Below are positions 1-3,000 of a stretch of DNA of 64,000 nucleotides, piece by piece. Made by a program: the position numbers. Position 1 is the first letter of the stretch. The number at the start of each line of letters is the position of its first letter. This DNA is from Escherichia coli O127:H6 str. E2348/69 (GTDB lineage: Bacteria; Pseudomonadota; Gammaproteobacteria; Enterobacterales; Enterobacteriaceae): the NCBI RefSeq assembly GCF_000026545.1, contig NC_011601.1. One strand, written 5' to 3'.

Positions 1-3000
1 AGCGCGCAGCTTTCCGAGGTCACCGGTGCTGCACAGGTGGTAGTGGCGCATTTTGCTTCTGACGGCGCGGGGGCCGCTTGTCCCATTGACGCCATCACGC
101 TGCGTACAATTTCTTCAATCTGTTTTTGATCCATGATGTGTTATCTCCGCGTCATCAGAAGAACAGTGACGGATCGCCCGCCCGTTTGGTCAGGCGACCG
201 TTTGCCATAATGCCCATGCTTTCCAGCCAGCGTTCAAACTCCGGTGACGGGCGCAGGTTGAGTAACTGACGCACAGTGGCGGTGTCGTGGAAGGCCGTAG
301 TCTGGTAGTTGAGCATGATGTCATCACCCAGCGGCATCCCCATGATGTAGTTGCAGCCTGCGGTGGCGAGCAGGATCATCAGGTTTTCGTTGAGGTTCTG
401 GTCAGCGTCAGCGTGGTTGGTGTAGCAGCAGTCACAGCCCATAGAGATGCCGCTCAGCTTGCCCATAAAGTGATCTTCTAAGCCAGCACGGATAATCTGC
501 CGGTCGTTGTAGAGATACTCTGGCCCAATAAAGCCGACTACGGTGTTGACGATAAACGGATCGTAATGACGTGCCAGCCCGTAGTTACGCGCTTCCATCG
601 TTACCTGATCTGCGCCGAAGTTAGCGCCCGCCGATAGCGCAGAACCCTGCCCGGTTTCGAAGTAGAGGCAGTTTTCCCCGGCGATACGGTTGAACTCCGC
701 GCCCACTGCGCGCGCTTCGTCGAGCATCGCCAGCTCTACGCCAAACTCTTTCAGCCCTTTTTCACTGCCGCAGATACTCTGGAAAATCAGCCCGCCCGGC
801 GCACCGCGACGGATCGCTTCGATCTGGGTGGTGACGTGCGCCAGTACGCAGCCCTGGGTTGGAATATTGAATTTGTCGATCACGCCATAGATGGTATCCA
901 GCACGCGGCTTAAGTTTTCCACGTCGTCAGTCACCGGGTTAACGCCGATCACCGCATCGCCCACCCCGAAAGAAAGCCCTTCGTAGATTTGCGCGGCGAT
1001 ACTTTGCACGTCGTCGCGGGTATCGTTTGGCTGCAAACGGGCGCTGAAGGTGCCCGGAATACCGATGGTGGTATTGGCCTTTTTGATCACCGGCATTTTC
1101 TTCGCGCCATAGATCAGGTCCGCGTTGGAGCAAATCTTCGCTACCGCCGCGACCACTTCCGAGGTCAGCCCTTTGCGGGTAAAGGCAATGTCGTCCACGC
1201 TGGTTTCATCGCTCAGCACATACTCACGCAGTTCGCTGATGCTCCAGTTTTTAATCTGGTTGTAGGCCGTTTCGTTAACGTCGTCCTGAATCAGTCGCGT
1301 CACGCAGTCATCTTCATAGGCAATCACCGGATTATTGCGGATGTCCGCTACGGTCATTTCCGACAACACCTGCTTTGCCGCCACGCGCTCTTGTGAGCTT
1401 GCCGCTGCAACGCCCGCCAGCACATCCCCCGAACGCAGTTCGTTGGCTTTAGCCAGCACCTCTTTTACATCCTTAAACTGATATACATTGCCGAACAATG
1501 TGGTCTTTAGTTTCATAAGTCGTTCCCTCAGGAAGGAAATGCGAGTGATTTCACCGTCACCGGCACAACCGATCCGCCAAAAAGAGGCGTACCAATGTCG
1601 ATATAGTCCCCCGCGCGGACAATCACTTCGTCAATGACTGCCAACGGGAGTTGTTGTAGCTGTGGGCGCAACAACATGCCCAGAGCTTTACCAAAGTCCT
1701 GCCCGGCCACCACCAGCAGGGGATGCGGATTCGGAAAACGCGCGACGAAATCGACCAGCGCGTTGATGACCGTTAGTACCGCGGCGTAACGCACAGGCAG
1801 CGAGGCGGGAAGCGCCAGCACGTACGCGTCAGTTTTGGGATCAAGATCCAGTTGAATTAGCGCTTGTTGCCAGGCACTCACCAGATCCGTTTCATCAATT
1901 GGGATCGCCACCGGCAAATTGCGCAGCGGCAGTTGTACGCCCTCCAGCCAGATTGTGCTGCCAGAGAGCGAAAGGGTATGTGCACCCGCGCCAATCACCG
2001 TGGCGCGTACGGTTTGCGCCGGAAACTGCACGTTCATCTCACGCAGACGAGGATGCTCATGCAGCGCCGTTGCCAGAAGCGGGCCAATATCGGCAAAACA
2101 GAACGGGTCAGCGGGCTGGTGGCGATAACATTCGCCCACGCCGCCAGAAAGCGTAATGATTTCGGGCGTAACACCTGCGGGCAGCAAACCGGTTTTCATT
2201 AATGCCTGCGCGAGCGGCGAGAGCGTTCCGTCAATCACTTCGACAATCAGCTCTGCCATCCGGCGGGTAACCTGCACCAGCTGCGCGCCGGTCAGCGAAC
2301 GGGCGTCAGTGCCTGCACCGAAGCACTCATCCACTATCATCTGCCCCGGTTTATGAGCGTAAACCACGCGCCCCTGGCTGTCGGTTTCCAGCAGGCGACC
2401 GCCGACGTTGAGGCAAGCGGTGCCGCTGATTTTTCCGGCATCAAACAGGGCGTAGTTCGCGGTGCCACCGCCGATATCGATATTCAGGACCCGACACAGC
2501 CGTTGTTCAGAAAGGGTTTGCGCCCCGGCACCGTGACCGGCGATCACGGATTCGAGATGCGGTCCAGCGCTGGCGACGACAAAATCGCCCAGCGACCGGG
2601 AGAGGGCCATCACCGCCGGGCGAGCGTTGCGGGTTTTTGCGCTTTCACCGGTGATAATGATGGCACCAGAATCAACGCTTTCCGGCGCAATGCCCGCAGC
2701 CTGATATTGCTTGAGGATTAAGGTTTTCAGTTCCGCTTCTTTTAAACCACCCTGTTTATCGACCTGTCTCTTGATCAGATCTCCTGATCAAGAGACTTCA
2801 TCACCAGGTAACCCTCAACCATATCCTGAAGTCTGAACCAGCCATCCCACATGACTACCCAACCGGGGCGACCGGTGCGTTTGCTGTCATGCCATCGCCC
2901 CAGTTTCGCCAGTTTCAGACAGGCCCATTTCAGTGTCGGCATCTGTGACGGAAGCGGTTTTCCTTCCAGCTTAACCCACAGCAGTTTCCACTCTGTCGGC

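What the first reader, a model, noticed from the sequence alone, without database searches (positions are those of the whole stretch)
1516..1528. eutA and eutB are adjacent; the K-12 CPZ-55 prophage is absent here
In K-12 MG1655, as I recall, a small cryptic prophage (CPZ-55) sits between eutA and eutB. Here only 11 bp separate them, so this genome carries the ancestral uninterrupted eutA-eutB junction while having acquired a different mobile element inside eutA.
Basis: established knowledge. Interest (0 to 1): 0.25.

Follow-up and report, generated by a model that had tools for sequence, protein, structure and literature searches.

The report
Unoccupied CPZ-55 prophage site, eutA–eutB
The ethanolamine genes eutA and eutB sit 11 bases apart here, so the spot where laboratory E. 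coli K-12 carries the small cryptic prophage CPZ-55 is simply empty, which is the normal, ancestral and already documented state of about 91% of E. coli genomes.

Summary
The observation and the interpretation are both correct, and both are already known. On the minus strand, eutB starts at 1516 and the eutA stop codon is at 1530-1528. The spacer between them is 11 nt (1517-1527).

In MG1655, RefSeq annotates CPZ-55 exactly between eutB and eutA. The prophage is flanked by an 8-bp direct repeat, TCAGGAAG, which covers the eutA stop codon. The window holds one copy of that repeat (1528-1535), so it is an empty attB.

- **Frequency in E. coli:** the junction is uninterrupted in 4964 of 5426 complete genomes.
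- **Other species:** all 39 loci checked have the same 11-nt spacing, so the uninterrupted state is ancestral.
- **Published record:** the 8-bp duplication and a prevalence of about 8% are already in the literature.
- **Source strain:** the window is EPEC O127:H6 E2348/69, identical at 63,999 of 64,000 bases.
- **Other insertions:** eutA is split by a 1550-bp ISEc13 (2764-4313). This insertion is found only in three O127:H6 genomes. A Mu-like prophage splits eutC about 340 bp outside the window.

One thing remains unexplained. The junction lies in a roughly 200-nt island (about 1416-1614) where synonymous sites are almost frozen across enterobacterial genera. I found no RNA family, stable fold, overlapping ORF or mobile-element copy that accounts for it.

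The parts
155..1516 (-). eutB (ethanolamine ammonia-lyase large subunit), intact, 453 aa
   Evidence: ORF list. RefSeq annotation of the identical E2348/69 sequence.
1517..1527 (-). 11-nt eutA-eutB spacer (GGGAACGACTT on the coding strand); it carries most of the eutB Shine-Dalgarno-like GAGGG (1525-1529, whose first two bases are the GA of the eutA stop codon)
   Evidence: Read directly from the sequence. The spacer is identical in all 35 species loci.
1528..1535 (.). Single-copy 8-bp att core TCAGGAAG (CTTCCTGA on the coding strand: the last eutA codons plus the TGA stop). This is the unoccupied attB of CPZ-55 / IntZ-type elements
   Evidence: The same 8 bp are duplicated at both ends of CPZ-55 in MG1655 and of the ES5 and LR-71-1 elements. 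The duplication is published in PMC6379469.
1528..2763 (-). eutA 3' fragment (codons 57-467 plus stop)
   Evidence: blastn to MG1655 eutA. RefSeq annotates it as a pseudogene fragment. Reconstruction.
2764..4313 (-). ISEc13 (IS4 family, IS50-like ends), 1550 bp. Transposase ORF 2775..4148(-). Flanked by the 10-bp target duplication GTTTATCGAC at 2754-2763 and 4314-4323
   Evidence: The eutA::ISEc13 junction occurs in only 3 complete genomes, all O127:H6.
4314..4491 (-). eutA 5' fragment (GTG start at 4491-4489, overlapping the eutH stop codon)
1416..1614 (-). Roughly 200-nt island of near-invariant nucleotide sequence across enterobacterial genera (last 28 codons of eutA, the spacer, and the first ~33 codons of eutB), centred on the att core
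   Evidence: Third codon positions vary at 17 of 60 sites in the island against 482 of 535 in the flanks (Fisher p = 4e-25).
1523..1539 (-). Predicted 7-bp hairpin UUUCCUU-CCU-GAGGGAA. It pairs the last eutA codons with the eutB Shine-Dalgarno sequence, suggesting translational coupling (inferred, not shown)
   Evidence: Fold outputs (local dG -6.2 kcal/mol). The sequence is invariant in the 35 species loci except for one substitution in E. whittamii, so covariation cannot be assessed.

Best explanation
Positions 1516-1528 are the native, uninterrupted eutA-eutB junction of the enterobacterial eut operon. This junction is also the unoccupied bacterial attachment site (attB) used by CPZ-55 and related elements that carry an IntZ-type tyrosine integrase.

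In K-12 the element has recombined at an 8-bp core (CTTCCTGA on the eut coding strand) that spans the last eutA codons and the stop codon. The core is duplicated, so eutA and eutB both stay intact but end up 6.8 kb apart. In this window the core is present once, and the flanks match the K-12 attL-left and attR-right arms exactly. This genome, EPEC O127:H6 E2348/69, therefore has the ancestral arrangement.

The operon is broken in other ways in this lineage. An IS4-family ISEc13 inserted after codon 56 of eutA, and a Mu-like prophage inserted in eutC just outside the window.

Shown here: the junction anatomy, the att core, the population and outgroup distributions, and the identity of the IS. 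Inferred: that IntZ catalyses the recombination, that this attB is still integration-competent, and that the strain cannot use ethanolamine.
For: - Sequence and ORFs.
- MG1655 annotation with CPZ-55 between b2441 and b2451.
- blastn break points, 8-bp overlap and three-way alignment.
- The same core in two other occupied strains.
- Census: 4964 of 5426 genomes are uninterrupted. 405 have the K-12-type eutB-intZ junction. 212 carry CPZ-55 DNA at >=99% identity, and about 190 have only an intZ-like integrase at 80-90% identity.
- All 39 non-E. coli or distant loci have the same 11-nt spacing.
- K-12 DH1 lacks CPZ-55 and has a junction identical to the window.
- Literature: the 8-bp TCAGGAAG duplication and 8% prevalence (PMC6379469); CPZ-55 between eutA and eutB (PMC6652756 and PMC7617246).
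- ISEc13.
- Mu-like prophage in eutC.
Against: Nothing contradicts this reading. There are three limits. A past occupation followed by precise excision would leave the same sequence, as DH1 shows. No recombination assay was possible. The RefSeq complete-genome set over-represents K-12 laboratory strains, so the carrier frequencies do not reflect natural populations.
Confidence: 0.97

Rival explanations
1. Secondary loss. The O127:H6 lineage once carried a CPZ-55-type element at this site and lost it by precise site-specific excision, so the junction is restored rather than ancestral.
For: Precise loss does happen. K-12 DH1 has no CPZ-55, and its junction is 199/199 identical to the window. Roughly 7.5% of genomes carry IntZ-type elements at this site.
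Against: It is not needed. About 91% of E. coli and every outgroup checked are unoccupied. The window has no CPZ-55 or IntZ homology. Excision leaves no scar, so the sequence cannot decide the question.
Confidence: 0.04
2. The tight junction is an artefact: an assembly collapse or a deletion that removed an insert along with some eut sequence.
For: None was found.
Against: Three independent O127:H6 assemblies share the region. eutB is intact, and eutA is full length once the IS is removed. The spacer is base-for-base the same as in 35 other species.
Confidence: 0.01
3. Additional layer, not exclusive with the best explanation. The junction is embedded in a discrete cis-acting element, at the RNA or DNA level, that freezes synonymous sites over about 200 nt. 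One candidate is a signal for translational coupling or control of EutB synthesis. IntZ-type elements would then exploit this invariant sequence as a dependable attB.
For: - Mean pairwise identity is 0.985-0.997 from rel -90 to +30 (and >=0.95 out to about +90), against 0.70-0.90 in the flanks, in 26 loci from at least 8 genera.
- Third codon positions vary at 17/60 sites in the island against 482/535 in the flanks (p = 4e-25).
- It is the only stretch above 0.97 in about 13 kb of the eut operon.
- Within E. coli the island is >=99% identical to the window in 5079 of 5423 records, against 4 of 5386 for a control eutB segment.
- A local hairpin pairs the eutB Shine-Dalgarno sequence with the eutA tail.
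Against: - No Rfam match, even at E <= 10.
- Folding energy is no better than shuffled sequence (z = -0.6 and -1.0).
- The MFE structure is mostly broken by the substitutions seen in the four divergent homologues.
- Other eut gene junctions show the same effect more weakly (0.95-0.97 over 45-90 nt), so this may be an extreme case of ordinary constraint on translation-initiation regions.
- In L044 and L046 only the eutA side is frozen.
Confidence: 0.35

Closest known systems
CPZ-55 cryptic prophage attachment site in E. coli K-12 (described in Ramisetty & Sudhakari 2019, PMC6379469)
   Same: Same locus, the same 8-bp core TCAGGAAG, and identical bacterial arms.
   Different: Here the site is empty. 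There is one core copy and no intZ or yffL-yffS genes.
Canonical 17-gene eut operon of Salmonella enterica and non-K-12 E. coli (for example Nissle 1917, PMC7617246)
   Same: Gene order eutS...eutH-eutA-eutB-eutC, with eutA and eutB adjacent.
   Different: In this genome eutA is split by ISEc13, and eutC is split by a Mu-like prophage outside the window. The operon is contiguous at this junction but probably non-functional.
Other IntZ-type integrative elements at the same site (UPEC U71 'novel prophage', PMC6652756; ES5 and LR-71-1 elements found here)
   Same: They use the same 8-bp core and the same orientation, with the integrase next to eutB.
   Different: They differ in size and cargo. 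The ES5 element is 12.4 kb and has a terminase-small-subunit-like gene. The LR-71-1 element is 11.6 kb and carries gadC, murI and IS copies. All are absent from the window.
IS50 (Tn5) / IS4 family insertion sequences
   Same: The ISEc13 left end, CTGTCTCTTGATCAGATCT, equals the IS50 inside end as I recall it. The right end, CTGTCTCTTATACACAAAT, resembles the outside/mosaic end. It has a DDE transposase of the IS4 family (NF033590) and a 9-10-bp target duplication.
   Different: It is a distinct IS (1550 bp, 457-aa transposase), present in about 27-30 copies in O127:H6 genomes.

Membership tests
Unoccupied attB of CPZ-55 / IntZ-type elements | The 8-bp core TCAGGAAG is present exactly once at the eutA stop codon | tested here: met
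   Window 1528-1535. The core is duplicated in occupied genomes.
Unoccupied attB of CPZ-55 / IntZ-type elements | The flanks are collinear with the bacterial arms of attL (eutB side) and attR (eutA side) of K-12 | tested here: met
   The three-way alignment is identical across the arms. blastn: window 1-1535 and 1528-2763 map to either side of CPZ-55.
Unoccupied attB of CPZ-55 / IntZ-type elements | No integrase or element genes at the junction or elsewhere in the window | tested here: met
   No blastn or tblastx hits of the CPZ-55 interior against the window.
Unoccupied attB of CPZ-55 / IntZ-type elements | The site supports IntZ-mediated integration and excision | not testable with these tools
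   Only indirect evidence: scarless absence in K-12 DH1, and several distinct elements at the same core.
Enterobacterial eut operon, ancestral eutA-eutB adjacency | eutA stop and eutB start separated by the conserved 11-nt spacer in outgroup genera | tested here: met
   35 of 35 species loci and 4 of 4 distant loci.
IS4-family insertion sequence (ISEc13) | DDE transposase matching the family model above its cutoff | tested here: met
   NF033590 scores 514 bits against a cutoff of 160. RefSeq names it 'IS4-like element ISEc13 family transposase'.
IS4-family insertion sequence (ISEc13) | Terminal inverted repeats and a direct target-site duplication | tested here: met
   The ends share CTGTCTCTT (9/9), then become imperfect. 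The 10-bp duplication is GTTTATCGAC. The target in MG1655 is a single copy.
Any described RNA family (Rfam 15) at the junction | Covariance-model match in 1100-1950 on either strand | tested here: not met
   No matches at E <= 10. The only gathering-level hit in the whole window is naRNA4 at 5795-5876.

The most novel reading that the evidence does not exclude
The eutA-eutB junction (about 1416-1614) may be an undescribed cis-acting element. Its synonymous sites are almost frozen from E. coli to Klebsiella, Citrobacter and Salmonella, and it is nearly monomorphic within E. coli. It could govern EutB (ethanolamine ammonia-lyase) synthesis, for example through termination-coupled unmasking of the eutB ribosome-binding site plus further unknown RNA contacts. 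Its invariance would also explain why IntZ-type mobile elements chose it as their attachment site.
Probability: 0.3. Interest if true: 0.45.

Novelty: already known. Interest (0 to 1): 0.1.

Why it matters
The finding itself matters very little. It restates a textbook difference between K-12 and most other E. coli, and its practical use is as a strain marker. It does help to read this genome correctly. E2348/69 keeps the ancestral eutA-eutB junction, yet its eut operon is broken at two other places: ISEc13 in eutA and a Mu-like prophage in eutC. The strain is therefore predicted not to use ethanolamine, a gut nutrient and signal for attaching-effacing E. coli. The side observation, extreme synonymous constraint around the junction, could point to unrecognised post-transcriptional control of ethanolamine ammonia-lyase if it proves functional.

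Tried and rejected
- **Known RNA at the junction:** Rfam found nothing at E <= 10.
- **Unusually stable RNA fold of the island, either strand:** z = -0.63 and -0.96, no better than shuffles. RNAalifold on 40 sequences was uninformative because there is too little variation and a few sequences have indels. The MFE structure is not maintained in the four divergent homologues: 5-11 of the 7-14 affected pairs are broken.
- **Overlapping or antisense gene:** the only candidate is a 49-aa TTG-start antisense ORF (1488-1637), which does not match the extent of the island.
- **Internal sigma-70 promoter:** none found. Two weak antisense terminator-like hairpins are probably chance.
- **Homogenisation by a mobile element carrying a copy of the island:** all three occupied genomes share only the 8-bp core. 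No phage record has a copy except a 4.9-kb 'Salmonella phage' entry that looks like host DNA. The plasmid hits are chromosomes or chromids.
- **CsrA control at this junction:** the published CsrA site is in the eutS leader and nothing is reported here. GGA motifs noted by eye were not tested.
- **IntZ relatives in IMG/VR, to test cross-genus use of the site:** none confirmed.
- **Literature on E2348/69 eut disruptions:** two searches failed on syntax, two found nothing useful, and the E2348/69 genome paper is not held.

Full report
**1. The observation**

All eut genes in the window lie on the minus strand.
- eutB is the ORF 155..1516 (453 aa), with its ATG at 1516-1514.
- The ORF that ends in TGA at 1530-1528 is the 3' part of eutA.
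- Between them lie 11 bases, 1517-1527 (GGGAACGACTT on the coding strand).

The window comes from enteropathogenic E. coli O127:H6 strain E2348/69. Its reverse complement matches NZ_CP059840.2 positions 1365085-1429084 at 63,999 of 64,000 bases. The single difference is at window 50189. RefSeq annotation of that record names the genes as above.

**2. Where CPZ-55 sits in K-12**

The RefSeq record of MG1655 annotates 'cryptic prophage CPZ-55' at 2558691..2565480. It carries intZ and yffL-yffS, and lies between eutB (b2441) and eutA (b2451).

blastn of the window against that region gives two collinear blocks:
- window 1-1535 maps to the eutB side;
- window 1528-2763 maps to the eutA side.

The blocks overlap by 8 bases. 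A three-way alignment shows that TCAGGAAG (window + strand) occurs at both prophage ends, and that the bacterial arms are identical to the window. On the coding strand this core is CTTCCTGA, which is the last eutA codons plus the stop codon.

The element therefore recombined at the very end of eutA. It duplicated the core and left both genes intact. This exact description is published: an 8-bp TCAGGAAG duplication, unchanged eutA and eutB, and CPZ-55 in 8% of 638 genomes (PMC6379469). Two further papers state that CPZ-55 lies between eutA and eutB in K-12 strains and that a different prophage occupies the same site in a UPEC isolate.

The window holds a single core at 1528-1535 and has no CPZ-55 homology anywhere. 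It is an empty attB.

**3. How common, and which state is ancestral**

| State among 5426 complete E. coli genomes | Genomes |
|---|---|
| 1011-bp probe across the junction is contiguous | 4964 (91.5%) |
| K-12-type eutB-attL-intZ junction | 405 |
| Any intZ-like sequence | 410 |
| CPZ-55 DNA at >=99% identity (in the sample listed, mostly K-12 laboratory derivatives) | 212 |
| Only an 80-90% identical integrase, with other cargo | about 190 |

Two of the elements with other cargo were inspected. Both use the same 8-bp core.
- Strain ES5 has a 12.4-kb element with a terminase-small-subunit-like gene.
- Strain LR-71-1 has an 11.6-kb element with gadC, murI and IS copies.

K-12 strain DH1 lacks CPZ-55. 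Its eutA and eutB are 11 nt apart, and the 199-nt junction is identical to the window. Loss by excision is therefore scarless.

For outgroups, I scanned one genome per species with a pattern that fixes only the amino acids 8-22 of EutB. This returned 35 species of Citrobacter, Klebsiella, Salmonella, Escherichia, Pluralibacter, Pseudocitrobacter, Yokenella and Intestinirhabdus. Every one reads eutA...TTCCTTCCTGA-GGGAACGACTT-ATG eutB (E. whittamii has one substitution in the eutA tail). Four more distant metagenomic loci (EutA 77-80% identical) have the same 11-nt gap.

The only caveat is that an earlier occupation followed by precise excision cannot be excluded from sequence alone.

**4. The other mobile element**

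eutA is split after codon 56 by a 1550-bp insertion at 2764..4313.
- The insertion is flanked by a 10-bp direct duplication, GTTTATCGAC. This sequence is single-copy in MG1655.
- Its 457-aa ORF (2775..4148, minus strand) scores 514 bits on the IS4-family model NF033590, against a cutoff of 160.
- RefSeq calls it ISEc13.
- Its ends resemble those of IS50/Tn5 (the IS50 end sequences are from my own knowledge).
- Removing the IS and one duplication copy restores a 467-codon eutA that is 98% identical to K-12 EutA.
- The eutA::ISEc13 junction occurs in only three complete genomes, all O127:H6. Each carries about 27-30 ISEc13 copies.

About 340 bp beyond the left edge of the window, the same genome has a roughly 35.7-kb Mu-like prophage inserted in eutC. 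It encodes a Mu transposase, Mor, a gpT-type major head protein and a tail sheath. The operon is thus contiguous at the CPZ-55 site but broken twice elsewhere. That it is non-functional is an inference.

**5. An unexplained feature at the same coordinates**

I aligned 26 of the species loci over ±900 nt around the eutB start.
- Mean pairwise nucleotide identity is 0.985-0.997 from about -90 to +30 relative to the eutB ATG, and stays at or above 0.95 to about +90 (the island as I define it runs from -98 to +100, window about 1614..1416). In the flanks it is 0.70-0.90, and nearly every third codon position varies there.
- Third positions vary at 17 of 60 sites inside the island, mostly as singletons, against 482 of 535 outside (Fisher p = 4e-25).
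- The search pattern constrained only amino acids at +21..+64, so the eutA side is unbiased.
- Across about 13 kb of the operon, no other stretch exceeds 0.97. Other gene junctions show weaker peaks of 0.95-0.97 over 45-90 nt.
- Within E. coli the island is >=99% identical to the window in 5079 of 5423 records. A control eutB segment 400 nt away reaches that level in 4 of 5386 records.
- In the four more distant loci the constraint weakens unevenly. In L046 and L044 only the eutA side is frozen. In L043 and L045 the core shrinks to about -50..+30.

I could not explain it.
- No Rfam family matches.
- There is no excess folding stability on either strand.
- The divergent homologues do not preserve the MFE structure.
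- There is no convincing overlapping ORF and no promoter-like site.
- No phage, plasmid or element-borne copy exists that could homogenise it.

One local feature is a 7-bp hairpin (window 1523-1539). It pairs the last eutA codons with the eutB Shine-Dalgarno sequence and places part of the eutA stop codon in the loop. This fits classical translational coupling. However, it is inferred only, and it cannot account for 200 nt.

The most economical view is an extreme case of the ordinary constraint seen at operon gene junctions. A discrete cis-element remains possible; I put this at about 0.3. Either way, an invariant sequence makes a dependable attachment site for IntZ-type elements.

**6. Verdict**

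The novelty class is 'already known': the state is documented in reference annotation and in at least three papers. Interest is low (0.1). The conserved island is the only item worth a further look.

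Noticed in passing
window 1416-1614 (minus strand; eutA codons ~440-467, spacer, eutB codons 1-33): An island of about 200 nt where synonymous sites are almost invariant across at least 8 enterobacterial genera, and which is nearly monomorphic within E. 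coli. Neighbouring eut sequence diverges normally. No RNA family, stable fold, overlapping ORF or mobile copy explains it.
   Followed up: yes
window 2764-4313 (target duplications at 2754-2763 and 4314-4323): ISEc13 (IS4 family, IS50-like ends) splits eutA after codon 56. This insertion is found only in the three complete O127:H6 genomes, each of which carries about 27-30 ISEc13 copies.
   Followed up: yes
outside the window, about 340 bp left of position 1; L007 ~426-36141 (NZ_CP059840.2 ~1429425-1465140): A Mu-like transposable prophage of about 35.7 kb (Mu transposase, Mor, gpT-type major head protein, tail sheath) is inserted inside eutC of the same genome. The eut operon is therefore broken twice in this lineage.
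   Followed up: partly
L003 14520-26968 (strain ES5); L004 12501-24056 (strain LR-71-1): Wild E. coli carry different elements at the same 8-bp core, each with an IntZ-like integrase at 80-93% nucleotide identity. One is 12.4 kb with a terminase-small-subunit-like gene, which looks satellite-like. The other is 11.6 kb with gadC, murI, IS3 and IS1. About 190 complete genomes have such non-CPZ-55 intZ-like genes.
   Followed up: partly
L047 (E. coli K-12 DH1, NC_017638.1 2540960-2546158): This K-12 derivative has no CPZ-55. Its eutA and eutB are 11 nt apart and the junction is identical to the window, so it is a natural example of scarless excision.
   Followed up: yes
window 5745-5929 (eutH-eutG intergenic region): Two tandem ~100-nt REP/BIME-type units (95% match). 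They give the only gathering-level Rfam hit in the window, naRNA4 (RF02564), at 5795-5876 on the minus strand. The repeats are also present in MG1655.
   Followed up: partly
window 25124-29536 (minus strand): The ehaJ autotransporter adhesin and its O-heptosyltransferase lie between narQ and acrD, according to the RefSeq annotation of the identical record. I did not check whether this is an accessory insertion.
   Followed up: no
window 60360-64000: A phage lysis cassette (two holins, a GH19 endolysin, a DUF2514 protein), a hypothetical gene and an acyltransferase lie next to yfgI. This looks like the edge of a prophage or a remnant of one.
   Followed up: no
window 50189: The single base that differs from NZ_CP059840.2 (record position 1378896, in the purM-upp intergenic region). 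The window therefore probably comes from another E2348/69 or O127:H6 assembly.
   Followed up: no
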